Origin: an uncultured bacterium
GTDB taxonomy: Bacteria; Patescibacteriota; Microgenomatia; UBA1400; CG1-02-47-37
Length of the DNA: 64,000 nt
Direction: 5' to 3'
Assembly: GCA_963980215.1 (NCBI GenBank)
Contig: CAXBYZ010000001.1
Location: 7,370 to 71,369, forward strand
The notes under the pieces: model-generated
The model's input: the letters and a program-made list of their open reading frames with translations, nothing else
What the model was told of the DNA's origin: nothing
The model's database searches: none
Made by a program: the position numbers and the translations under genes
In this document: piece by piece, positions 4,583-62,938 of the stretch
Numbering within the stretch: the stretch's first letter is position 1
How the letters are laid out: each line of letters begins with the position of its first letter

Positions 4583-4617
4583 TTGACAAGAAAGAATGAT
4601 TTGCTATGATAGCAAAG
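4583..4617 (+). promoter_or_regulatory. sigma70-like promoter (TTGACA-17nt-TATGAT) facing the Cys-rich ORF at 4774
   Basis: TTGACA at 4583-4588, 17-nt spacer, TATGAT; read directly from the sequence. Confidence 0.4.
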
Positions 4618-4709
4618 AATTAATATGACAGTAAATCGAGTTTTTAACCACCTTACTATTAAGATCCGCGTTGCGGGGGCCAATTCTTGGCTCTTTATTA
4701 ACGCAGATC

Positions 4710-4766
4710 AGGAGGTGGCTTAGAAAGCTAATAAATAATTTATTAACACCTCCTTAAATAAGGAGG
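4710..4766 (+). promoter_or_regulatory. structured 5' leader with anti-SD/SD alternative pairing
   Basis: AGGAGGTG (4710-4717) ... palindrome TAATAAATAATTTATTA (4729-4745) ... CACCTCCT (4747-4754) ... SD AAGGAGG (4760-4766), ATG at 4774. CACCTCCT can pair perfectly with the upstream AGGAGGTG or 7/8 with the SD. Confidence 0.3.
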
Positions 4767-4773
4767 TTTTTTT

Positions 4774-5283
4774 ATGGTTGAATCGCAATCACGAGCAGTG
4801 TTGGTTAACCGGCAAAGAGCAACGTTAGTATCTGTGTTTGATCTAGTTGCTGATGTTGCTGGGAGTGTTGATGATCATTTAAAAGCAAGAAGTGATCCAA
4901 GAAAAAAACTTTTTATTAGAAAATGTTTTTCGGATCCATATTCCTGTAGATCTTCACTTATACAAACAAATGAATGTGGTAGGCATGGTGAGAAAAAAGT
5001 GGTGTGCCACCCAGATATAGGACCTAGAGAAATTCCAGAAATAATCGTTGAAAAACAAAGTAATGTGGTAGTATACCAAGCGACTGGGTGTCAAAATCCT
5101 CCCATTGAATGTATATATAACAAAAAAACTCCGAATTTAGGTTCAACTTGTAATCATCCAAGAATTAGAACCCCCCAGTCAGGAACACATATTATTCGAT
5201 GCACTGATCATAACGATAAAAAGCAATATTTTTCATTACAAAAGGATGGCTTAGGAGCAACAATCGATGCAATTAATAAGTAA
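4774..5283 (+). CDS. hypothetical cysteine-rich small protein (169 aa, about 8 Cys, no signal peptide)
   Basis: ORF with strong SD (AAGGAGG, 7 nt before ATG) and upstream promoter. No family recognised. Confidence 0.45.
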   Translation: MVESQSRAVLVNRQRATLVSVFDLVADVAGSVDDHLKARSDPRKKLFIRKCFSDPYSCRSSLIQTNECGRHGEKKVVCHPDIGPREIPEIIVEKQSNVVVYQATGCQNPPIECIYNKKTPNLGSTCNHPRIRTPQSGTHIIRCTDHNDKKQYFSLQKDGLGATIDAINK

Positions 5284-5341
5284 AAAATGAGTTAGAGTTG
5301 AGTTATAATTAGTTGGTATCAGCTAAGTGTTTATAGACTTT

Positions 5342-5494
5342 ATTTTTAGCTGTAAGGTTTTGTTGCCGTTCCACTCGTTTTTATCGATAGTGTAGATAAT
5401 ATCTATTTTTTGACCTGATTTTAACTTGGTGGCTTTGGCGCCGAGATTAAAAGCGATGGCGGGCAGGTTGTCCTGCAGGGAGAGTCCTTGCAGG
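5342..5494. repeat. 153-bp perfect direct repeat, copy A (orphan copy of the recJ 3' coding end)
   Basis: Identical over 153 nt to 6056-6208 by direct comparison. About 12 nt further left shows degraded similarity (9/12). Confidence 0.9.
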
Positions 5495-5737
5495 TTAGTG
5501 ATAGGCGGATTGGCGGTGGGCGATGGAAAAAATGGTGATGGTTGAGCTTTTAATTGAGTAAATTATTCGGTAAGGCCAAGCTCTGACTGAGTATAAATCT
5601 TTTAATTCACCTCTTAAAATTTTGCCGGCTTTAGGGTCGTTGGTTAGGGCTTCTAGTTTTCTGACTATTTTTTTCTTTTCAACTAAAGGAAGTTTTTTGA
5701 GTTGTTTAATTACTTGAGGTTTATAAACAATCTTCAT
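5495..5737 (-). CDS. type II toxin, RelE/ParE superfamily
   Basis: 80 aa: KIVYKPQVIKQLKKLP...DPKAGKILRGELKDLYSVRAWPYRIIYSI...IFSIAHRQSAYH. Overlaps the upstream antitoxin by 4 nt (ATGA). Confidence 0.8.
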   Translation of the reverse strand: MKIVYKPQVIKQLKKLPLVEKKKIVRKLEALTNDPKAGKILRGELKDLYSVRAWPYRIIYSIKSSTITIFSIAHRQSAYH

Positions 5738-6006
5738 GGAGTTAAACCAATGGCTTTGAGCATGTCTGAGTGAGAGATAGTATTTGTTTCTTTTTTACTT
5801 TGACGTATAGCGGATAACTCTTTTTTGTTTTGTAAGATATCGAGAGTTTCTTGCCAAGACTCAAGCTCTTTTTTACTAATTAACACTACTGGTTCCGAAC
5901 CCCTCAATTTAATAACAAAACTTTTCAAGCCAAGACTGGCTGACTTGATGATTGAGTAAAGATTTTCCCTAGTTTCGCTTGCTGTAAGAGTTGCTGAATA
6001 ATTCAT
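5734..6006 (-). CDS. type II antitoxin, Phd/YefM family
   Basis: 90 aa: ...RENLYSIIKSASLGLKSFVIKLRGSEPVVLISKKELESWQETLDIL... Upstream of and translationally coupled to the RelE-like gene. Confidence 0.75.
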   Translation of the reverse strand: MNYSATLTASETRENLYSIIKSASLGLKSFVIKLRGSEPVVLISKKELESWQETLDILQNKKELSAIRQSKKETNTISHSDMLKAIGLTP

Positions 6007-6014
6007 ATTAACAT

Positions 6015-6043
6015 ATCGTACTATTACTCGTACTAGTTGTCAA
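6015..6043 (-). promoter_or_regulatory. promoter of the phd-relE cassette (TTGACA-17nt-TACGAT on the minus strand) with CGTACT direct repeats
   Basis: Minus-strand reading: TTGACAactagtacgagtaatagTACGAT. Repeated CGTACTA motifs form a likely operator. Confidence 0.4.
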
Positions 6044-7710
6044 GTAATAGATTTGATTTTTAGCTGTAAGGTTTTGTTGCCGTTCCACTCGTTTTTATCG
6101 ATAGTGTAGATAATATCTATTTTTTGACCTGATTTTAACTTGGTGGCTTTGGCGCCGAGATTAAAAGCGATGGCGGGCAGGTTGTCCTGCAGGGAGAGTC
6201 CTTGCAGGGTGAGTTTTAAGTGTTTTTGGTCTTGGCCAACGGTACGAAAATCTACAAGCTCAACCTTTTTACTAATAAAGAGGGGTGGTTTGTTGCCAAA
6301 ACCGCTTGGTTCTAGTTTTTCTAGTTCTTCAAATAATTCCCAGTTAATATCTGAAAGGTTTAGCTGACAGTCTATGTTTATGGTTGGGGTAAGTTGGTCT
6401 TTGGTAAGTTCTTTTTCTGCTAAATCTTCTAGCCTCTTTTGAACTTCTGGTAAGTTAACGTTTTTAACAGTAAAGCCGGCGGCCATTTGGTGACCACCGT
6501 GTTCTAAGATTATGTCTTCCATGCTTCTAATAGCTTTTAAAACATTAAAACCTTTGATGGATCTAGCTGAGGCTTTTGAAAATGTTTCTCCCATGGAGAC
6601 GACAAAGGCTGGTTTGTAGTATTTTTCTACTAAACGGCTGGCAACTAGACCAACAATACCTTCATGGTAAGACTGGTGTTGAACAAAATTTAGTTTCTTC
6701 TTTGATTGGTTGTGCTCGATTATTTGATTGTTGGCATGAAAGTACATCTTCATGGTTTTGTCTTGTCTTTCTAGGTTGGTTTGGTTTAGGTTGTTGGCTA
6801 GTTTGTTGGCTTTTTCTAGACTGGTGGTGCAGAGAAGTCTTAGAGAATCTAGAGCGTGTTCGAGTCTGGCCATGGCGTTTAACCTGGGACCAATCATATA
6901 GCCAATTTGGTAAGTGGCGATGGTTGGTAACTCTATCTTTGAAACTGAAGCGAGGGCATTTAAACCAATTCTTTTGGATTGTTTTAGTGACTCTAGGCCA
7001 AATTTAACTAAGGAGCGATTGGCTTTGGTAAGAGGAACCATGTCTGCGATAGTACCAATGGCAACTAGTTCTAGTGAAGTTTCTAGGTCTTTTAACTCTC
7101 TTGCTAAAAACCAAGAAACACCAACACCAGCTAACTTTGTGGTGTGAACAACACTAACTACTTTTGGGTAGTAGGGTTTTTTGTTTTTTACTTTTGGTTG
7201 GTGGTGGTCGGTGATGATGACATCGATACCCTTTTTGGCGGCATACTCAGAGCCTTTGAAAGCTGAGATGCCGTTATCTACAGTGATGATTAACTGACAG
7301 GGTCCATCCTTGTCAGAGAGAATTTGGTCGATGCCATCTGGAGATAGACCACGGATAGTGTCGCCTCTTCCGGGAATGTAGGGCATGACCTTGGCTTTTA
7401 AAGCGTGAAGAGATTCCCATAAGACTGCTGTAGAAGTGATGCCGTCGGCATCGTAGTCTCCGTAGATATAGATTAGCTCTTTATTCTTGATGGCTTTTTT
7501 GATACGAGTGACGGCTTTTTTTAGTTGAACTTTGTTAATACCCACATCCTCTGGTTTAATTTTTTCTGGATCGATAGGGTTTAGAAAATCTTTTTGGTCT
7601 GCTTTGGTTTTTATGCCTCGATTAATTAAGATAGCAGAGATAATTTTATCTCGTCTTTTTTTGAGATCAGTATCTTTTATTTTTGATTTGATTTTTATTA
7701 TCTTATCCAT
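6040..7710 (-). CDS. recJ: single-stranded-DNA-specific exonuclease RecJ
   Basis: DHH motifs (IYIYGDYDADGITSTAVL; VIITDHHQP) and DHHA1-like region. Start taken as ATG for MDKIIKIK (7710); the track ORF extends to 7836 with alternative starts 7725/7836. Confidence 0.85.
   Translation of the reverse strand: MDKIIKIKSKIKDTDLKKRRDKIISAILINRGIKTKADQKDFLNPIDPEKIKPEDVGINKVQLKKAVTRIKKAIKNKELIYIYGDYDADGITSTAVLWESLHALKAKVMPYIPGRGDTIRGLSPDGIDQILSDKDGPCQLIITVDNGISAFKGSEYAAKKGIDVIITDHHQPKVKNKKPYYPKVVSVVHTTKLAGVGVSWFLARELKDLETSLELVAIGTIADMVPLTKANRSLVKFGLESLKQSKRIGLNALASVSKIELPTIATYQIGYMIGPRLNAMARLEHALDSLRLLCTTSLEKANKLANNLNQTNLERQDKTMKMYFHANNQIIEHNQSKKKLNFVQHQSYHEGIVGLVASRLVEKYYKPAFVVSMGETFSKASARSIKGFNVLKAIRSMEDIILEHGGHQMAAGFTVKNVNLPEVQKRLEDLAEKELTKDQLTPTINIDCQLNLSDINWELFEELEKLEPSGFGNKPPLFISKKVELVDFRTVGQDQKHLKLTLQGLSLQDNLPAIAFNLGAKATKLKSGQKIDIIYTIDKNEWNGNKTLQLKIKSIT
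6056..6208. repeat. 153-bp perfect direct repeat, copy B (functional 3' end of recJ)
   Basis: Identical to 5342-5494. Encodes the last ~51 codons of RecJ (minus the final 4 codons). Confidence 0.9.
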
Positions 7711-7730
7711 AACGGTTATAATCATAACAT

Positions 7731-9074: not shown

Positions 9075-9088
9075 GACAATTACCTCTA

Positions 9089-9107
9089 TCACACCTTAGA
9101 GGTGTGA
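9089..9107. repeat. REP-like hairpin, family A (TCACACCT-TAG-AGGTGTGA)
   Basis: 8-bp stem/3-nt loop within the 21-mer ATCACACCTTAGAGGTGTGAT. Identical copies at 9819, 34731 and 47216. Confidence 0.7.
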
Positions 9108-9110
9108 TTT

Positions 9111-9785
9111 TTATTCTTCGAAGTCGAGCATGACTTTTTTGATGTTTTGAAGATTTCTTTGATGGTCGGCGTGATCGTAAACAAAATTTCGATATGAATT
9201 TTTTTGCTTAAAGTAACTTAGAACAATATCTTTTTGACAGTAGTTGGTATTGGTTAGATGTAGGTATTCAGGTAAAGATGAGTATTGATACTTATCTAAC
9301 TGATTAATATTTTCCGCCAAACCGGCACTGTAGGGATTTAAGTGGATGTAGCGAGAGAGATGTAGTAATTGTGACTCTGTCTCAACTAAAACAGATTTAA
9401 ATTTACCTTGAAAAATGGGGCCAATTCTTTTATTTTTTGTATTAAAATATCGAGTATAACTATTGGCAAATTTACTCATAAAATTAGAGATGCCGTTGTC
9501 AACTGATTGCTCTAACAGTAAGTGAAAATGGTTCGGCATAAAACAATAACTAATTATTTTTACTAAATGCTGTTTAGGTTTGTTGGGCTTTTTATCTTTA
9601 TCGAGGAATTGTTGACGAGAAAAATAGGAAAATCTAATTTTTGGAGATTCTTCTTGATAATAAAGCAGGGTATCTAGGCAGCGCCAATAGTGTCTTTCGT
9701 CTAAGAAAATTGGCATTGAAGCAACTCCGCGGTTAAAGATGTGATAAATGCTGTCTGTAATTAGAGGAGTTTTTCTCCCAGGCAT
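9111..9785 (-). mobile_element. REP-associated tyrosine transposase (RAYT; IS200/IS605-like HuH Y1 transposase), copy 1
   Basis: 224 aa with HuH motif (MPNHFHLLL) and catalytic-Tyr region (SRYIHLNPY). No tnpB partner; family-A REP hairpins sit 3 nt from its stop and 33 nt from its start. Confidence 0.8.
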
Positions 9786-9818
9786 ATTTTTATTATAACA
9801 TTCATCTACCTACCCCCA

Positions 9819-9837
9819 TCACACCTTAGAGGTGTGA
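9819..9837. repeat. REP-like hairpin, family A
   Basis: TCACACCTTAGAGGTGTGA. Overlaps the last 6 codons and the stop of secF. Confidence 0.7.
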
Positions 9838-10712
9838 TGTTTGGCCTTGAGATCCTCCCAGAGGACAAGGAGGGGGGCAGCGGTGAAGGTGGATGAGTAG
9901 GTGCCTGAGATAGTACCAATAAGTAGAGCAAAGACGAACCACTTGGTGGTGTCGCCACCCAAAAGATAGAGGGCAAGCAACATGAATATAATTGTTAAGG
10001 AGTTGTTGACTGATCGACCAAGAGTCTCGGTGACAGCTTTGTTGACTAGGTCTGTGTAGGACAGCCTGGGGTAAAGTTTGATGGATTCTCGGATACGATC
10101 GTAGACGACGATGGTGTCGTGAACTGAGAAAGAGAGAATGGTAAGGATGGCGGTGACAAAGAGAGCATCGACTTCAACTCCCCTAGTGACACCTAGGTAA
10201 CTAAAGATACCAACAGTAATAAAAGTGTCGTGAAGCATGGCCAAGATTGCACAGATACCGTACTTTTTATCTTTAAATCTAGTGGCTACGAAAACTAGGA
10301 TAAAACCGGCAGCGATAAAGACACCGATGAGAGTTTTTTTGATTAACTCTTTACCCATGGTTGGACCGACTGTCTCGAAACGAGTTTCTTCTACCTCCCC
10401 TAGCTGGTCTTCTAGGGTTTGTTTTATGGCTTGATTGGTTTCTTGATCGAACTGCTGAGCTTTAATGACAAAAATGTTGTTTTCTTGTTGTATAGCTTGA
10501 TTTAAGATAACGGTATCTTCAACAAGATTGGTAATTTTATCTAGTGACAACTCTTGGTCTTCTTTTGGAGTGATTGATATCTCTAAGATAGTTCCCCCAG
10601 TAAAGTCGACTGCTGGTTTTAGCCCGTGCTTGATTAGAAAAAAACTACTGGGAATCAGAAATAGTAAGGAGAAGAGAAAATAAAGTGTTTTGTACTTCAT
10701 GAAGTTGATCAT
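9819..10712 (-). CDS. secF: protein-export membrane protein SecF
   Basis: FTGGTILEISI and VHDTIVVYDRIRE motifs with 6 TM helices. The C-terminal HHTSKV and the stop are encoded by the REP hairpin. Confidence 0.85.
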   Translation of the reverse strand: MINFMKYKTLYFLFSLLFLIPSSFFLIKHGLKPAVDFTGGTILEISITPKEDQELSLDKITNLVEDTVILNQAIQQENNIFVIKAQQFDQETNQAIKQTLEDQLGEVEETRFETVGPTMGKELIKKTLIGVFIAAGFILVFVATRFKDKKYGICAILAMLHDTFITVGIFSYLGVTRGVEVDALFVTAILTILSFSVHDTIVVYDRIRESIKLYPRLSYTDLVNKAVTETLGRSVNNSLTIIFMLLALYLLGGDTTKWFVFALLIGTISGTYSSTFTAAPLLVLWEDLKAKHHTSKV

Positions 10713-34729: not shown

Positions 34730-34730
34730 A

Positions 34731-34749
34731 TCACACCTTAGAGGTGTGA
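34731..34749. repeat. REP-like hairpin, family A
   Basis: TCACACCTTAGAGGTGTGA. Sits 1 nt after the cupin stop and supplies the stop plus HTSKV to the convergent phosphoribosyltransferase gene. Confidence 0.7.
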
Positions 34750-35279
34750 TTTTGGAAATATTTGACTTGTTCGGGGGAGAAATTAAGGGATTTGAGGGAG
34801 TCGAGTTTGCCTAGTTTTTTAAGGTCGTCTATGGTCTCTCTAACATCGTAAGCAAAAACTACCCACTTGTCTGTTTTGATTTGCCAGTAATCTGGCAAGG
34901 GTTTACTCCAAGGTTTGATAATGGGAGTGAAAGTGGTAATTTTTTTGGGTTTTAGGGGCTTTAAATAATTAAAGGCGGCTTTTAGAGTAGTACCTTTATC
35001 TGTAATTTCGTCGACTAGTAAAATTGACTCGCCTTTGATATCAACAGCTAATTTTTCAACAATTTTGGGCTCGCCGGAATTGCCAACACTGGCGTAGGAA
35101 ACGAGAGTGAAATTGGATATAGGTAGCTTTAGAAAATCTGAGAGAATGCGAGAGATGACTAAACCGCCACGAGAGATACAAACAATGCGATCGAACTTTA
35201 TTTTTTTGTCGATAACCGTTTTTGAAAATTGAAAGCAGTGGTCTTGGATTTGATCCCAAGAAATGTATTGAAATTTCAT
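34731..35279 (-). CDS. phosphoribosyltransferase (type I PRTase fold)
   Basis: PRPP-binding motif ILLVDEITDKGTTL. The C-terminal NHTSKV and the stop are REP-encoded. Confidence 0.7.
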   Translation of the reverse strand: MKFQYISWDQIQDHCFQFSKTVIDKKIKFDRIVCISRGGLVISRILSDFLKLPISNFTLVSYASVGNSGEPKIVEKLAVDIKGESILLVDEITDKGTTLKAAFNYLKPLKPKKITTFTPIIKPWSKPLPDYWQIKTDKWVVFAYDVRETIDDLKKLGKLDSLKSLNFSPEQVKYFQNHTSKV

Positions 35280-42793: not shown

Positions 42794-43279
42794 TTATTTA
42801 TCCTTTTTTAATTTCTTAACAGACACTCCTGGAGTGGGAACTTCTTTCACTCCGGGAGTGAGAGATTTCTTTAATTTATCAGCATAAATGTGGGTTTCTG
42901 TTTTAAATATTTTTAATCTCTTTAACCTTGGACTTCTTAGCTTGTTTTTTGGCAACATGCTGGAAACTGCTCTAGTAATAATTTTTCTTGAATCTTTTTC
43001 TAACTGACGGTCAAAGGTGATTTGTTTTAAGCCATTTGGAAAGTTGGTGTGGCGGTAGTAAATTTTATTTTGTTCTTTTCTACCAGTTACTTTGACGTCG
43101 TTGCTGTTTATGACTACTACATAGTCTCCACAATCTAGGTGGGAAGTGAAGTAGGGTTTGGTCTTGCCGATTAATTTTTGGGCAATTTGAGTAGCGACTC
43201 GACCCAAAACTTGGTCTTTGACATCTACTAGATGCCAATCTCTTTTTATATCTGATTGTTTGGTTGCGTATGTGTCCAT
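42794..43279 (-). CDS. rplM: 50S ribosomal protein L13 with REP-encoded C-terminal extension
   Basis: L13 core; after ...IYADKLKK comes SLTPGVKEVPTPGV (encoded by the 42824-42860 element) then SVKKLKKDK. Confidence 0.9.
   Translation of the reverse strand: MDTYATKQSDIKRDWHLVDVKDQVLGRVATQIAQKLIGKTKPYFTSHLDCGDYVVVINSNDVKVTGRKEQNKIYYRHTNFPNGLKQITFDRQLEKDSRKIITRAVSSMLPKNKLRSPRLKRLKIFKTETHIYADKLKKSLTPGVKEVPTPGVSVKKLKKDK
42824..42860. repeat. BIME-like inverted pair of family-A hairpins (CACTCCTGGAGTG-GGAACTTCTTT-CACTCCGGGAGTG), in frame inside the rplM 3' end
   Basis: 36/37 identical to 43297-43333. The two hairpins are reverse complements of each other. Translated on the minus strand as LTPGVKEVPTPGV. 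Confidence 0.7.
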
Positions 43280-43281
43280 AA

Positions 43282-43701
43282 TTATTTCTCCACTTTCACT
43301 CCCGGAGTGGGAACTTCTTTCACTCCGGGAGTGAGTGAAGATTCTATTTTATCGACGAATTCGATTTTGGCCATCATGGTGTTGTCTCCCCTTCTTTGAC
43401 CTAGTCTAACTATTCTAGTAAAACCAGAGTTTCTTTTTTTAGCTCTAGGAGCGATAACGTCAAAAAGATGATTGGCAGCTTTCTTGTGTGAGAGAAAAGC
43501 CATAACTTGGCGACGACAAGACAGAGAACCCTGCCTAGCTTTAGTCATTAATTTGTCAATTAATGGCTTTATTGCTTTGGCTTTGGCCTCGGTAGTCTTG
43601 ATCTGCTCTTTGAAGATCAAGTTAGTGAGCAAGCTTTTAAATAAAGCTTTTCTCTGTTTGATGTTTCTACCAAGTTTCTTGGATTTGACTCTGTGTCTCA
43701 C
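43282..43701 (-). CDS. rplQ: 50S ribosomal protein L17 with REP-encoded C-terminal extension
   Basis: L17 core (...FTRIVRLGQRRGDN); tail SLTPGVKEVPTPGVKVEK. Confidence 0.9.
   Translation of the reverse strand: MRHRVKSKKLGRNIKQRKALFKSLLTNLIFKEQIKTTEAKAKAIKPLIDKLMTKARQGSLSCRRQVMAFLSHKKAANHLFDVIAPRAKKRNSGFTRIVRLGQRRGDNTMMAKIEFVDKIESSLTPGVKEVPTPGVKVEK
43297..43333. repeat. BIME-like inverted pair of family-A hairpins, in frame inside the rplQ 3' end
   Basis: CACTCCCGGAGTGGGAACTTCTTTCACTCCGGGAGTG. Confidence 0.7.
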
Positions 43702-47204: not shown

Positions 47205-47215
47205 AGTTACCTCTA

Positions 47216-47234
47216 TCACACCTTAGAGGTGTGA
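47216..47234. repeat. REP-like hairpin, family A
   Basis: TCACACCTTAGAGGTGTGA. Supplies the stop and HTSKV to cmk. Confidence 0.7.
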
Positions 47235-47938
47235 TTGATTAATTTGAGGTGGAGGAGTTTTTTGATGATTGCTTCTACAACTTGGTTGATTGTTAGTTTT
47301 GTGGTTTTTAGTAACCAAGCTCCTGGAACAATTTTAAGTGGATCTGCTTCTCTACCAGAATCTTGTTGGTCTCTTTTTTTTGTTTGTTTTAGAGTGGCTG
47401 GAAATGATTGTTTGGTTCCTTTTTTTGATAACTCAATGTGTCTACGTTTGGCTCTTGATTCAACTGAAGCTGTCATGAATATTTTAATGTCTGCCTTGGG
47501 AAGAACAACTGAAGTGATGTCCCTGCCCTCCATAACAACGCTTTGTTTTTTTGCCATTGTTTTTTGAAGATTGACCAAGTGTTTTCTTACCCTTGGAAGA
47601 GTAGCTACCGAAGAAGCTCCCCAACTGATTTTCTCTGATCGAAGTTCTTTGGTGACATCTTTGTTGTCTAACATAACAGTGCAGAAGCGACTGTTGTTTT
47701 TGGGTGGATAGAGCGAGATTTTTGATTTTTTTAGTAAAGGAATTAATTCTTTTTCATTGGTAAATTCAATTGAATTTCTTTGAGCTATTAGAGCGACTGT
47801 CCGATACATTGAACCGGTGTCGATGTAGGTAATGCTTAGTTGTTTAGATAGTAAGCGAGCGATGGTGCTTTTTCCCGCTCCAGCTGGACCGTCGATGGCA
47901 ATTTGAATATTCTTGGTAGGTTTATACTTTGGCTTCAT
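47216..47938 (-). CDS. cmk: cytidylate kinase
   Basis: IAIDGPAGAGKST P-loop and CMP-binding region. The C-terminal HTSKV and stop are REP-encoded. Confidence 0.8.
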   Translation of the reverse strand: MKPKYKPTKNIQIAIDGPAGAGKSTIARLLSKQLSITYIDTGSMYRTVALIAQRNSIEFTNEKELIPLLKKSKISLYPPKNNSRFCTVMLDNKDVTKELRSEKISWGASSVATLPRVRKHLVNLQKTMAKKQSVVMEGRDITSVVLPKADIKIFMTASVESRAKRRHIELSKKGTKQSFPATLKQTKKRDQQDSGREADPLKIVPGAWLLKTTKLTINQVVEAIIKKLLHLKLINHTSKV

Positions 47939-62224: not shown

Positions 62225-62248
62225 CCTACAGGGATCATCCTTGAAGGT
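62225..62248. repeat. REP-like element, family B (CCTACAGGGATCATCCTTGAAGGT)
   Basis: CTAC + hairpin CAGGGAT-C-ATCCTTG (one G.T) + AAGGT. Sits 15 nt upstream of the RAYT-2 start. Confidence 0.65.
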
Positions 62249-62412
62249 ATATAATGATTATAGATGCCTCCCAAGAATGCTGTAAAAAAATATAAACCAA
62301 GGTCTATTTATCATGTTTATAATAGAGGTGCTGGAAAACAAAATATTTTTAAAGATGAAGAGGATTACAAAACATTATTAGGTTATTTTAAATTTTATTT
62401 AACTCCCATAGA

Positions 62413-62436
62413 CCTACAGGGATCATCCTTGAAGGT
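62413..62436. repeat. REP-like element, family B, in frame inside the RAYT-2 CDS
   Basis: CCTACAGGGATCATCCTTGAAGGT translated as (D)LQGSSLKV, in frame +2 relative to the repeat. Confidence 0.65.
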
Positions 62437-62716
62437 GGCTCCATCTAGGGTATTAAAGAATCATGCTCTAAAAATTGAGTTGATTGCCTACTGCTTAATG
62501 TCAAATCACTTCCATTTAATTCTCTATCAGGAGGAGATTGATTCAATAAATAGTTTTTTGAGGTCAGTTGCAACTAAGTATGCAATGTATTTTAACCGTA
62601 AATACAAGAGAACTGGTCATTTATTTGAAGGTATATATAAGGCTGTTTTAATGAAAACTGAAGAACAGTTATTACACTTATCTAAATATATTCATAGGAA
62701 TCCTCTAGAGATTTTA

Positions 62717-62740
62717 CCTACAGGGATGATCCTTGAAGGT
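62717..62740. repeat. REP-like element, family B, in frame inside the RAYT-2 CDS
   Basis: CCTACAGGGATGATCCTTGAAGGT translated as PTGMILEG, in frame 0. This differs from the frame of the 62413 copy. Confidence 0.65.
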
Positions 62741-62914
62741 TATAAATATTCGAGTTACGGGAATTATTTAAAACAATTTACGCAAACCTGGGTGAAATCT
62801 GAAAAGGTTATGAGTGTGTTTAACAGAGTTGATCATGAATATTCATCATATAAAGAATTTGTTGAAAAAAATGAAGAAATTATAAAATTTAAAGAAGTTT
62901 TATTGGATTATTAG

Positions 62915-62938
62915 CCTACAAGGATGATCCTTGAAGGT
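62915..62938. repeat. REP-like element, family B
   Basis: CCTACAAGGATGATCCTTGAAGGT. Sits exactly between the RAYT-2 stop (62912-62914) and the rpsG stop (62939-62941). Confidence 0.65.

What the first reader, a model, noticed from the sequence alone, without database searches (positions are those of the whole stretch)
5342..6208. RelE/Phd toxin-antitoxin cassette at the recJ 3' end bracketed by a perfect 153-bp direct repeat of recJ coding sequence
- Positions 5342-5494 and 6056-6208 are identical over 153 nt.
- Copy B is the functional C-terminal coding end of recJ.
- Copy A is an orphan lying just downstream of the relE stop.
- The 561 bp between them hold exactly one promoter-phd-relE module.
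- Beyond the left edge of copy A the similarity to the recJ terminus continues in degraded form (about 9/12 matches).

This is the signature of Campbell-type single-crossover integration of a small circular element carrying the TA pair plus a recJ 3' fragment, or of a duplication-mediated cassette capture. The exact identity implies the event is recent or homogenised.

TA cassettes are rarely caught with such a clean junction.
Basis: seen in the sequence. Interest (0 to 1): 0.7.

Follow-up and report, generated by a model that had tools for sequence, protein, structure and literature searches.

The report
Toxin-antitoxin cassette between duplicated recJ ends
A small toxin-antitoxin gene pair sits directly after the DNA-repair gene recJ of an uncultured Patescibacteria bacterium, between two identical 153-base copies of the end of recJ; two contigs from the same population lack it, so host recombination can probably cut it out precisely, which is a known kind of arrangement seen here in a new group with unusually readable junctions.

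Summary
Positions 5342-5494 and 6056-6208 are identical (153 nt; 162 nt with 2 mismatches), and the 561 nt between them hold one promoter-phd-relE module.

- **Reproducibility:** Eight independent assemblies span both repeat copies, and at least six more contain one junction.
- **Empty site:** Two contigs of the same population (over 99.9% identical) have recJ, one repeat copy and the downstream gene, exactly 714 bp shorter.
- **Age of the cassette:** It is not a newcomer. Orthologous phd-relE pairs sit at the same spot in relatives whose RecJ is only 59-73% identical. In each, phd starts 33 nt after the recJ stop and the TGA lies inside the cassette's -35 box. Toxin-antitoxin DNA identity between lineages is only 71-77%. 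No plasmid, phage or viral copy was found.
- **Inner repeat edge:** It coincides exactly with a REP-like palindrome. This palindrome belongs to a dispersed hairpin family linked to RAYT-like Y1 transposase genes in the same window.

Best reading: a long-resident chromosomal addiction cassette with a "long target duplication". Host recombination at the REP-like hairpin and the recJ terminus made it and keeps it homogeneous, which makes the cassette precisely excisable. The event that created the duplication is not resolved. I file it as a new member of a known kind, of moderate interest.

The parts
6056..6208 (-). Repeat copy B: a 153-nt perfect repeat that forms part of the functional recJ 3' coding end (codons LQGLSLQ...LQLKI).
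5342..5494 (-). Repeat copy A: an orphan copy of the same 153 nt, starting immediately after the relE stop codon.
5323..5341 (-). Displaced 'native' recJ terminus attached to copy A (ATA AAG TCT ATA AAC ACT TAG = IKSINT*). It differs from the copy-B terminus by 3 synonymous changes, one extra codon and a different stop codon. It is the terminus used by the empty-site allele.
6040..6055 (-). Cassette-linked recJ terminus (ATC AAA TCT ATT ACT TGA = IKSIT*). The sequence ATTACTTGACAA is shared with relative L036.
6040..7710 (-). recJ, the single-stranded-DNA exonuclease gene (556 aa from MDKIIK; an alternative ATG at 7725 gives 561 aa).
6015..6043 (-). Cassette promoter: -35 TTGACA (6038-6043, containing the recJ stop TGA), a 17-nt spacer, and -10 TACGAT (6015-6020). 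The phd ATG lies 8 nt downstream of the -10, so the transcript is leaderless or nearly so. Operator-like direct repeats AGTACGA sit at 6028-6034 and 6016-6022, and the motif is conserved in relatives.
5734..6006 (-). phd/yefM-family antitoxin gene (90 aa).
5495..5737 (-). relE-like toxin gene (80 aa, RelE/ParE superfamily). It overlaps phd by 4 nt (ATGA).
5472..5494 (-). REP-like palindrome CCTGCAAGGACTCTCCCTGCAGG at the start of copy A, directly after the relE stop TAA. It forms the 3' hairpin of the toxin-antitoxin transcript.
6186..6208 (-). The same REP-like palindrome inside recJ (codons LQGLSLQ, in a variable loop of the OB domain), at the start of copy B.
4774..5283 (+). ORF169, a Cys-rich ORF with no family match, convergent with recJ. 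It is the native downstream neighbour in both the occupied and the empty alleles and is absent from all relatives.

Best explanation
**What it is.** This is a long-resident chromosomal type II addiction cassette (own promoter, Phd/YefM antitoxin, RelE-like toxin). It has been anchored immediately 3' of recJ in a small Microgenomates-like clade of Patescibacteria. The cassette supplies recJ's last codons, and the recJ stop codon lies inside the cassette's -35 box.

**What is special in this population.** The cassette is bracketed by a long target duplication of the recJ 3' end. The upstream copy completes recJ. The downstream copy carries the terminus that recJ uses when the cassette is absent.

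**How the duplication arose (inferred).** No dedicated integrase made it. Host homologous or short-homology recombination between a cassette-bearing and a cassette-free recJ allele did. This is equivalent to Campbell or ends-in integration of a recJ-end-plus-cassette segment.
- One joint lies at the REP-type hairpin that normally follows the relE stop codon, paired with its REP-like paralogue embedded in recJ.
- The other joint lies in the last few recJ codons.
- The interior was copied from, or converted to, the resident recJ, which explains 153 of 153 identical bases.

**Consequences.**
- recJ stays intact.
- The hairpin serves as the 3' end of the toxin-antitoxin transcript.
- The 153-nt repeats let ordinary recombination delete the cassette precisely. 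This yields exactly the empty allele seen in the population, and the cassette can be restored by recombination with cassette-bearing DNA.

**Shown:** anatomy, conservation of position in relatives, presence and absence contigs, and the hairpin family. **Inferred:** the recombination route, the direction of the present polymorphism (most simply deletion), and toxin activity.
For: 1. **The repeat is real and reproducible.** establish it. Both copies at 714-nt spacing appear in contigs from 8 independent assemblies, including paired-end SPAdes assemblies and a JGI assembly. Single junctions appear in at least 6 more.
2. **An empty allele exists.** RecJ P0123 (562 aa, ending KSINT*) is on L034 and L035. 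These align to window 9939-6047 and then 5494-4625 (L034), and 8086-6047 and then 5494-3471 (L035). That is exactly one repeat copy plus the cassette removed, with otherwise over 99.9% identity.
3. **The cassette is old at this locus.**
   - phd-relE follows recJ with the same 33-nt gap and the same TGA-in-TTGACA overlap in L036-L041 (RecJ 59%, Phd 84%, RelE 78%), L042 (RecJ 73%, Phd 75%) and L085/L086 (RecJ 62%, Phd 84%). L043 (Phd 75%) shows the same TGA-in-TTGACA junction at its contig start.
   - Toxin-antitoxin DNA identity between lineages is 71-77%.
   - More distant homologues (55-65%) are not next to recJ.
4. **Both recJ termini evolved as coding sequence.** The copy-A and copy-B termini differ by 3 synonymous changes plus one codon, right after 153 identical bases. 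L085 has, after relE, the last 14 codons of a recJ allele. They differ from its own recJ end by 4 synonymous and 3 conservative changes. This indicates displaced termini of once-functional cassette-free alleles and a mosaic history.
5. **The inner joint is at a REP-like palindrome.**
   - Eleven family members occur in the window against about 0.02 expected, mostly just after stop codons.
   - The same hairpin type follows the relE stop in L043 and L036, and the recJ stop in the cassette-free L028.
6. **No recombinase gene lies in or beside the cassette**.
7. **Precedents for integrase-free insertion with long target duplication exist** (PMC2853133, PMC7935541). Transformation-driven alternative pairing of short repeats that creates duplications has been validated experimentally (PMC3784515).
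Against: - The empty-site contigs are few. L034 has low coverage (3.4x per its record name) and coverage of L035 is not known. An assembler can skip a repeat-cassette-repeat loop, so without reads their reality is likely but not proven.
- No sequence records the creating event. No donor, no hybrid hairpin and no mismatch inside the 153 nt were found. Ends-in integration, one-sided illegitimate joining, and an ancient duplication kept identical by gene conversion therefore cannot be separated.
- The closest sampled relatives (L028 and L030, RecJ 78-80%) lack the cassette. Vertical inheritance therefore needs at least one or two losses. Alternatively the cassette was transferred long ago.
- Toxicity, antitoxin neutralisation, promoter activity and recombination proficiency of this uncultured organism are untested.
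Confidence: 0.55

Rival explanations
1. The duplication is ancient and has undergone concerted evolution. Under this reading it arose once, when the cassette first inserted in the clade's ancestor. The downstream copy decayed in most lineages, but in this lineage gene conversion with the functional recJ end keeps it identical. Empty alleles would be recent deletion products only.
For: - The left junction is shared in all cassette-bearing lineages.
- Identity is perfect in the interior and divergent only at the repeat edge, as expected for conversion tracts.
- L036's post-relE hairpin also matches its own recJ for 4 of the 5 bases upstream of the stem.
- L085 keeps a terminal recJ remnant.
- The occupied and empty alleles differ by nothing except the 714-bp indel.
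Against: - The copy-A terminus differs from the copy-B terminus by synonymous changes only. L085's remnant differs from its own recJ end by mostly synonymous or conservative changes. This is hard to reconcile with a never-used relic.
- L043's hairpin matches the dispersed REP consensus (1 mismatch) and not the recJ hairpin of its close relative L042, so it need not be a recJ remnant.
- The L085 junction lies at a different recJ position (45 nt from the end, against 165 nt here).
Confidence: 0.22
2. The arrangement results from enzyme-driven recombination at hairpins. A RAYT-like HUH (Y1) transposase encoded in the genome would cut single-stranded DNA at REP-type hairpins. It would have joined the hairpin after relE to the REP-like hairpin in recJ, and it may excise the segment between the two identical hairpins as a circle.
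For: - The repeat starts exactly at the foot of the palindrome in both copies.
- Two Y1_Tnp/RAYT-like genes are in the window. Each is flanked by its own palindrome type, and one of those types is the family to which the recJ hairpin belongs.
- Hairpins of this family are found in-frame in coding sequence, in recJ and in the RAYT-2 gene.
Against: - The recJ hairpin has 5 mismatches to the 23-nt consensus. It has GCAG where the family has GTAG.
- IS200/IS605-type reactions do not create long duplications.
- The RAYT-like proteins score below the NCBIfam RAYT cut-off (53 and 34.5 bits against 80).
- The closely related occupied and empty alleles are fully explained by RecA-type recombination between 153-nt repeats.
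Confidence: 0.1
3. The arrangement is an assembly artefact or an episome. The real molecules would be a cassette-free chromosome plus a 714-bp circle (or a strain mixture). These give the same assembly graph as an integrated repeat-cassette-repeat.
For: - The 153-nt repeat exceeds the k-mer sizes used, and many contigs break inside it.
- Both arrangements appear among contigs of one population.
Against: - Eight assemblies from different samples and assemblers traverse both copies in the same order.
- Relatives without any long repeat have the cassette integrated at the same chromosomal spot.
- A 714-bp circle has no replication function.
- No free, plasmid or viral form was found.
Confidence: 0.06
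4. This is a remnant of an integrase-type integrative element (island or prophage). Such an element targets the 3' end of a gene and carries a replacement 3' end, with the repeats being attL and attR.
For: It shows direct repeats of a gene's 3' end with the gene kept intact, as for elements that target tRNA, tmRNA or protein genes (established knowledge; also discussed in PMC2853133).
Against: - There is no integrase or other recombinase between the repeats or next to them. The insert is only 561 nt and fully occupied by promoter, phd and relE.
- The repeat is far longer than typical att cores.
- There are no phage or plasmid matches.
Confidence: 0.03

Closest known systems
'Insertion with long target duplication' of restriction-modification gene units (Nobusato et al. 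2000, from memory; Furuta, Abe & Kobayashi 2010, PMC2853133)
   Same: - A small addiction-type gene unit with no transposase or integrase.
- It is flanked by long direct repeats (over 30 bp, up to hundreds of bp).
- The repeats correspond to a single copy in a conspecific genome lacking the insert, sometimes overlapping a gene's 3' end.
- The mechanism is unknown and is suspected to involve host recombination in naturally competent bacteria.
   Different: - The cargo here is a toxin-antitoxin pair, not restriction-modification genes.
- The host is a Patescibacteria lineage.
- The cassette is orthologous at the same site in diverged relatives, so it is long resident rather than a recent insertion.
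- One joint sits on a REP-like palindrome.
- The duplication preserves a complete host gene, with a cassette-encoded terminus.
ParE/ParD-like module of Microcystis aeruginosa PCC 7806, flanked by identical 152-bp direct repeats containing a 16-bp inverted repeat (PMC7935541)
   Same: A type II toxin-antitoxin pair lies directly downstream of a host gene. It is fenced by two identical direct repeats of about 150 bp, each of which holds a short palindrome.
   Different: - In Microcystis the repeats are intergenic, not a duplicated coding 3' end.
- In the parts of that paper I read, no empty-site allele or orthologous placement in relatives was reported.
Integrative elements that insert into the 3' end of tRNA, tmRNA or protein genes and restore it (established knowledge)
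   Same: The target gene's 3' end is duplicated. The element-proximal copy completes the gene, and the displaced native end lies at the far junction.
   Different: There is no integrase. The insert is 561 nt, and the repeat (153 nt) is used as plain homology.
REP/RAYT (REPIN) systems (PMC2817692, PMC3116915, PMC3337134)
   Same: Short palindromes are dispersed mostly after genes. Y1 (HUH) transposase genes are flanked by their cognate palindromes, and two such pairs occur in this window.
   Different: - The proteins score below the curated RAYT cut-off.
- The flanking palindromes are in direct, not inverted, orientation.
- Copies are embedded in-frame in coding sequence.
- Involvement in the duplication is only positional.
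Transformation-triggered duplications by alternative pairing of a short repeat (Johnston et al. 2013, PMC3784515)
   Same: A donor fragment whose repeat pairs with a paralogous copy creates a duplication bordered by that repeat, using only host recombination.
   Different: - The pneumococcal cases are 100-900 kb tandem duplications bordered by insertion-sequence fragments.
- Here 153 nt is duplicated around a cassette.
- Competence of this organism was not examined.

Membership tests
Type II toxin-antitoxin, Phd/YefM-RelE | Antitoxin gene upstream of and overlapping a small toxin gene, in one operon. | tested here: met
   phd 5734-6006 and relE 5495-5737 overlap by 4 nt (ATGA), on the same strand.
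Type II toxin-antitoxin, Phd/YefM-RelE | The antitoxin matches the Phd/YefM family above the curated cut-off. | tested here: met
   PF02604 scores 41.4 bits against 29.8. TIGR01552 scores 20.8 against 20.8.
Type II toxin-antitoxin, Phd/YefM-RelE | The toxin belongs to the RelE/ParE superfamily, and specifically to RelE. | tested here: inconclusive
   - The superfamily is met: PF05016 scores 42 bits against 23.
- The RelE_StbE subfamily scores 22.7, below the 27.9 cut-off.
- The best solved-structure matches are all RelE proteins, but weak (E = 2e-4 to 0.2).
Type II toxin-antitoxin, Phd/YefM-RelE | Toxicity, neutralisation by the antitoxin, and autoregulation. | not testable with these tools
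   Only a promoter-like site with conserved direct repeats AGTACGA-N5-AGTACGA is seen.
Insertion with long target duplication (criteria of PMC2853133) | The insert is flanked by direct repeats longer than 30 bp. | tested here: met
   153 nt perfect, or 162 nt at 99%.
Insertion with long target duplication (criteria of PMC2853133) | The repeat is present once, with no insert, in a conspecific genome. | tested here: met
   L034 and L035. Caveat: these are two short metagenomic contigs with no read-level check.
Insertion with long target duplication (criteria of PMC2853133) | No other mobile-element genes in the insert, and an insert shorter than 20 kb. | tested here: met
   The 561-nt spacer holds only the promoter, phd, relE and the recJ terminus.
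Insertion with long target duplication (criteria of PMC2853133) | The cargo is a restriction-modification system. | tested here: not met
   The cargo is a toxin-antitoxin pair. It is therefore the same kind of rearrangement with a different addiction module.
Campbell-type integration of a circular element | A free circular or plasmid form carrying the cassette plus the recJ fragment. | tested here: not met
   There is no match in plasmids, phages or viral contigs. All looked-up contigs show chromosomal context. Reads could not be examined.
Integrase-mediated integrative element | A tyrosine or serine recombinase gene within or adjacent to the element. | tested here: not met
   The neighbours are recJ, ORF169, aspS and the CCA-adding enzyme gene.
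REP/RAYT system | A Y1 (HUH) transposase-fold protein. | tested here: met
   PF01797 scores 36.6 and 33 bits against a cut-off of 23 for 9111-9785(-) and 62264-62914(+). NF047646 scores only 53 and 34.5 against 80.
REP/RAYT system | The gene is flanked by its cognate palindromes, which are also dispersed in the genome. | tested here: met
   - ATCACACCTTAGAGGTGTGAT occurs at 9088 and 9818, flanking gene 1, and also at 34730 and 47215.
- The CCTTCAAGGATCATCCCTGTAGG family occurs at 62225 and 62915, flanking gene 2, plus 7 further sites and the two recJ copies.
REP/RAYT system | The transposase acts on the recJ hairpin and caused the duplication. | not testable with these tools
   There is only positional coincidence of the repeat edge with the palindrome.

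The most novel reading that the evidence does not exclude
The 714-bp unit (recJ end plus promoter-phd-relE) may be a minimal, recombinase-free mobile cassette. It would use a REP-like hairpin embedded in an essential-type host gene, plus that gene's 3' end, as its attachment site. It would cycle between integrated, excised-circle and re-integrated states in a naturally DNA-scavenging Patescibacteria population. The genome's RAYT-like HUH enzymes might cut at the two identical hairpins. The addiction module would thereby enforce its own retention.
Probability: 0.12. Interest if true: 0.7.

Novelty: new member of a known kind. Interest (0 to 1): 0.4.

Why it matters
It gives a clean natural example, apparently with both occupied and empty alleles in one near-clonal population, of how an addiction module can sit in a chromosome without any recombinase of its own. 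The host gene is kept intact by a long duplication, and that duplication doubles as the substrate for precise loss and regain by ordinary recombination.

It extends 'insertion with long target duplication' in two ways: from restriction-modification systems to a toxin-antitoxin pair, and to the reduced genomes of Patescibacteria.

It also points to REP-type hairpins, including copies living inside coding sequence, as recombination joints. The read sets behind the assemblies named here could be used to measure excision directly, which would make the proposed cycle testable.

Tried and rejected
1. **Hairpins in relatives as recJ remnants.** I first read the hairpin after relE in L043 and L036, and after recJ in L028, as degraded remnants of the recJ duplication. 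'LQGSSLKVN...' resembles RecJ. I withdrew this for L043 and L028 once the palindrome proved to be a dispersed REP-like family. Translated, the family gives the same peptide, and it also occurs inside the RAYT-2 gene. L036 remains ambiguous.
2. **Recent horizontal arrival of the cassette.** Rejected. The nearest non-conspecific Phd is 84% identical at protein level and 77% at DNA level, and it sits at the same locus.
3. **Metagenome scan for the conserved promoter/operator.** It added nothing.
4. **GTDB genome scan with the Phd alignment.** It found no homologue closer than 65%, and none of the 55-65% homologues (L044-L049) lies next to recJ.
5. **Plasmid, phage and viral searches.** All negative.
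6. **Four mismatches at the start of contig L005,** two of them in copy B. They are scattered non-synonymous changes within the first 52 nt of a MEGAHIT contig. I treated them as tip errors, not as evidence of diverged copies.
7. **Tandem duplication by hairpin-hairpin exchange within one chromosome.** Rejected. It would give two cassette copies, and the downstream copy would carry the cassette-type terminus, which is not observed.
8. **Rfam.** The only hit is weak: isrI at 27.7 bits against a gathering score of 45. I do not regard it as real.
9. **My first AspRS translation** was out of frame, so those AspRS identities are not used.


Full report
**Observation.** The window contains one long direct repeat, 5333-5494 vs 6047-6208 (162 nt, 99%).
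- Identity is perfect over 5342-5494 = 6056-6208 (153 nt), followed by 7 of 9 matches and then nothing.
- No shuffle of the window gives such a match. The only other direct repeat of 40 nt or more in 64 kb is an unrelated 70-nt pair.

All relevant genes are on the minus strand:
- recJ, 6040-7710 (DHH, DHHA1, RecJ_OB).
- A Phd/YefM antitoxin gene, 5734-6006.
- A RelE/ParE-superfamily toxin gene, 5495-5737, overlapping phd by ATGA.

The toxin's best solved-structure matches are RelE proteins. It misses the RelE_StbE subfamily cut-off.

Copy B encodes the last part of RecJ. Copy A begins immediately after the relE stop codon and still reads LQGLSLQ...KIKSINT*.

The cassette has a good sigma-70-like promoter whose -35 TTGACA (6038-6043) contains the recJ stop codon TGA. 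The -10 lies 8 nt before the phd ATG. Two AGTACGA direct repeats lie between the hexamers. The cassette therefore supplies the last codons of the working recJ.

**Is it an assembly quirk?**
- Exact look-ups of the toxin, the antitoxin and the downstream ORF169 returned contigs from many samples: ENA SPAdes and MEGAHIT assemblies, and JGI records whose names indicate Saanich Inlet (my reading). All are at least 99.7% identical to the window.
- Eight assemblies span both repeat copies with the same order and 714-nt spacing, and at least six more contain one junction.
- Many contigs break inside the repeat, as expected for a 153-nt repeat.
- Relatives that have no long repeat carry the same cassette at the same chromosomal position (below). 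An episome-plus-empty-chromosome reading is therefore unlikely.

**Empty site.** The 90% cluster of this RecJ contains a 562-aa member ending KSINT, one residue longer than the window's protein.
- It is encoded on two contigs from other samples (L034 and L035), where recJ is followed directly by ORF169.
- The contigs align to the window up to the end of copy B's register and resume at 5494. They equal the window minus one repeat copy and the cassette (714 bp) and use copy A's terminus.
- L034 carries two private SNPs on either side of the site.
- Caveat: the contigs are short. L034 has low coverage (3.4x per its record name), and coverage of L035 is not known. A loop-skipping assembler could produce them, so reads are needed.

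**The cassette is old at this locus.** Phd homologues are very few (7 hits).
- **Same placement in diverged relatives.**
  - Where the contig reaches recJ, every homologue of 75% or more lies 33 nt after a recJ stop codon embedded in TTGACA, with the same operator-like motif.
  - This holds for L036-L041 (RecJ 59%, CCA-adding enzyme 74%, Phd 84%, RelE 78%), L042 (RecJ 73%, Phd 75%) and L085/L086 (RecJ 62%, Phd 84%).
  - L043 (Phd 75%) begins at the recJ stop and shows the same TGA-in-TTGACA junction.
- **Divergence.** Toxin-antitoxin DNA identity between lineages is only 71-77%, comparable with recJ itself.
- **Closest relatives lack it.** L028 and L030 (RecJ 78-80%) go straight from recJ to aspS.
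- **More distant homologues are elsewhere.** Those at 55-65% lie at other loci.
- **No mobile form.** No plasmid, phage or viral copy exists in the collections searched.

The cassette is therefore a long-standing, patchily retained resident of the recJ 3' end, not a recent immigrant.

**The junctions.**
- **Outer junction.**
  - After 153 identical bases the two copies differ abruptly: ATC AAA TCT ATT ACT TGA against ATA AAG TCT ATA AAC ACT TAG.
  - The three substitutions are synonymous.
  - Both termini therefore look as if they evolved under coding constraint, as expected if cassette-free alleles have been in use.
  - The cassette-side terminus ATTACTTGACAA is shared with L036.
- **A second case.** In L085, relE is followed by a different hairpin and then by the last 14 codons of a recJ allele (GQKTLQLKVKEILT*). 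It differs from that organism's own recJ end by 4 synonymous and 3 conservative changes. This is a second, differently placed displaced recJ terminus.
- **Inner junction.**
  - The repeat starts exactly at the foot of the palindrome CCTGCAAGGACTCTCCCTGCAGG.
  - This is one of 11 members of a palindrome family in the window (consensus CCTTCAAGGATCATCCCTGTAGG), against a chance expectation of about 0.02.
  - Most members lie just after stop codons.
  - The same hairpin type follows the relE stop in L043 and L036, and the recJ stop in the cassette-free L028.
  - It is therefore the usual 3' hairpin in these genomes.
- **The hairpin inside recJ.** In recJ the hairpin occupies a variable loop of the OB domain that is absent from more distant RecJ proteins.
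- **Link to transposase genes.**
  - Four family members flank or lie inside a Y1 (IS200-like, RAYT-like) transposase gene inserted between rpsG and fusA.
  - A second such gene at 9111-9785 is flanked by another palindrome that has four identical copies in the window.

**Mechanism.** What is shown is a repeat-cassette-repeat arrangement, an apparent empty allele equal to the product of recombination between the repeats, an old cassette, and a REP-like joint.
- **Favoured reading (confidence about 0.55).**
  - Host recombination between cassette-bearing and cassette-free recJ alleles made the duplication.
  - The REP hairpin that ends the toxin-antitoxin operon paired with its paralogue inside recJ. 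The second joint lay in the recJ terminus or in the downstream homology.
  - The interior came from the resident recJ by gap repair or gene conversion, which explains the perfect identity. (Ends-in integration with gap repair is established yeast and bacterial genetics, cited from my own knowledge.)
  - Alternative pairing of short repeats during transformation is shown in PMC3784515.
- **Present polymorphism.** In a near-clonal population it is most simply explained by RecA-type deletion between the 153-nt repeats. The reverse step needs only recombination with cassette-bearing DNA.
- **Rivals.**
  - One ancient duplication kept uniform by gene conversion (0.22).
  - A RAYT-catalysed reaction at the hairpins (0.10).
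  - An assembly artefact or episome (0.06).
  - A decayed integrase-type element (0.03).
- The data cannot say which event created the duplication.

**Comparison with known systems.**
- The rearrangement meets the published criteria for 'insertion with long target duplication', apart from the cargo. The criteria are a repeat over 30 bp, a single copy in a conspecific genome, and no mobility genes. That class was described for restriction-modification units (PMC2853133).
- A ParE/ParD-like pair fenced by identical 152-bp repeats containing a palindrome is described in Microcystis (PMC7935541).
- It resembles integrase-type elements that restore a target gene's 3' end, but it fails the defining test because there is no recombinase.

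I therefore class it as a new member of a known kind. The new points are the host group, the toxin-antitoxin cargo with a cassette-encoded recJ terminus, orthologous placement across diverged relatives, and the REP-like joint.

**Verdict.** Interest is moderate (0.4). The most novel reading still open is a recombinase-free or RAYT-assisted cycling mini-element, to which I give about 0.12 probability.

Noticed in passing
window 62225-62937 (gene 62264-62914, + strand): A RAYT-like Y1 (IS200-like) transposase gene is inserted between rpsG and fusA on the opposite strand. Palindromes of the CCTTCAAGGATCATCCCTGTAGG family flank it at 62225 and 62915, and two more lie inside its coding sequence at 62413 and 62717. 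All four are in the same orientation.
   Followed up: partly
window 9088-9108, 9818-9838, 34730-34750, 47215-47235; gene 9111-9785 (- strand): A second RAYT-like Y1 gene is flanked on both sides by a different palindrome, ATCACACCTTAGAGGTGTGAT. Four identical copies occur in the window. The genome therefore appears to hold two separate REP/RAYT-like pairs. My two-of-three-term literature search on RAYTs listed no paper that mentions Patescibacteria.
   Followed up: partly
window 6186-6208 (recJ), 62413-62435 and 62717-62739 (RAYT-like gene); RecJ homologues P0007 and P0008: REP-like palindromes sit in-frame inside protein-coding sequence. They encode LQGLSLQ in a variable loop of the RecJ OB domain, and DLQGSSLKV and PTGMILEGY in the transposase. 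RecJ P0008 carries the exact consensus translation LQGSSLKV. More distant RecJ proteins lack this loop segment.
   Followed up: partly
window 4583-4770 (+ strand); L036 5783-5945 (-); L085 1747-1907 (-): A strong promoter (TTGACA-16-TATGAT) is followed by a structured stretch of about 150 nt with a conserved long-range helix (ACCACCTT / AGGAGGTGG) and a hairpin plus T-run terminator. The element is conserved in three lineages, although the small ORFs downstream (169, 69 and 61 aa) are unrelated. It is a candidate small RNA or leader. There is no Rfam family above threshold (isrI 27.7 bits against 45).
   Followed up: partly
window 4774-5283 (+ strand): ORF169 is Cys-rich and matches no Pfam or NCBIfam family. 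It is present in both the occupied and the empty alleles and absent from all relatives. Its ATG directly follows a terminator T-run, so its expression is doubtful. The slot between recJ or the cassette and aspS is hypervariable among lineages.
   Followed up: partly
L028 7669-7693: In the cassette-free relative, a REP-family hairpin (ACCTTCAAGGACTCTCCTTGTAGGT) lies one base after the recJ stop codon. It is closer to this window's recJ-internal hairpin (20 of 25) than to L028's own recJ hairpin (16 of 25). It could be an ordinary REP or a scar of a lost cassette.
   Followed up: no
L085 1468-1540: After relE there is a perfect hairpin with a stem of at least 10 bp (CATTTAAAGTTCCGAACTTTAAATG, z = -6.5), followed by the last 14 codons of a recJ allele with its own stop codon. 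This is a second, differently positioned displaced recJ terminus in another lineage.
   Followed up: partly
window 42811-42880 and 43284-43353: A 70-nt direct repeat (81%) contains the palindrome CACTCCGGGAGTG twice. One copy lies in the 3' coding end of rplM (encoding TPGVKEVPTPGV) and the other just upstream of its start.
   Followed up: no
protein P0005 (NCBI, partial RecJ, 78% identical): The contig of this relative ends inside the part of recJ that corresponds to the repeat. That could reflect a similar duplication in that genome. No DNA could be fetched.
   Followed up: no
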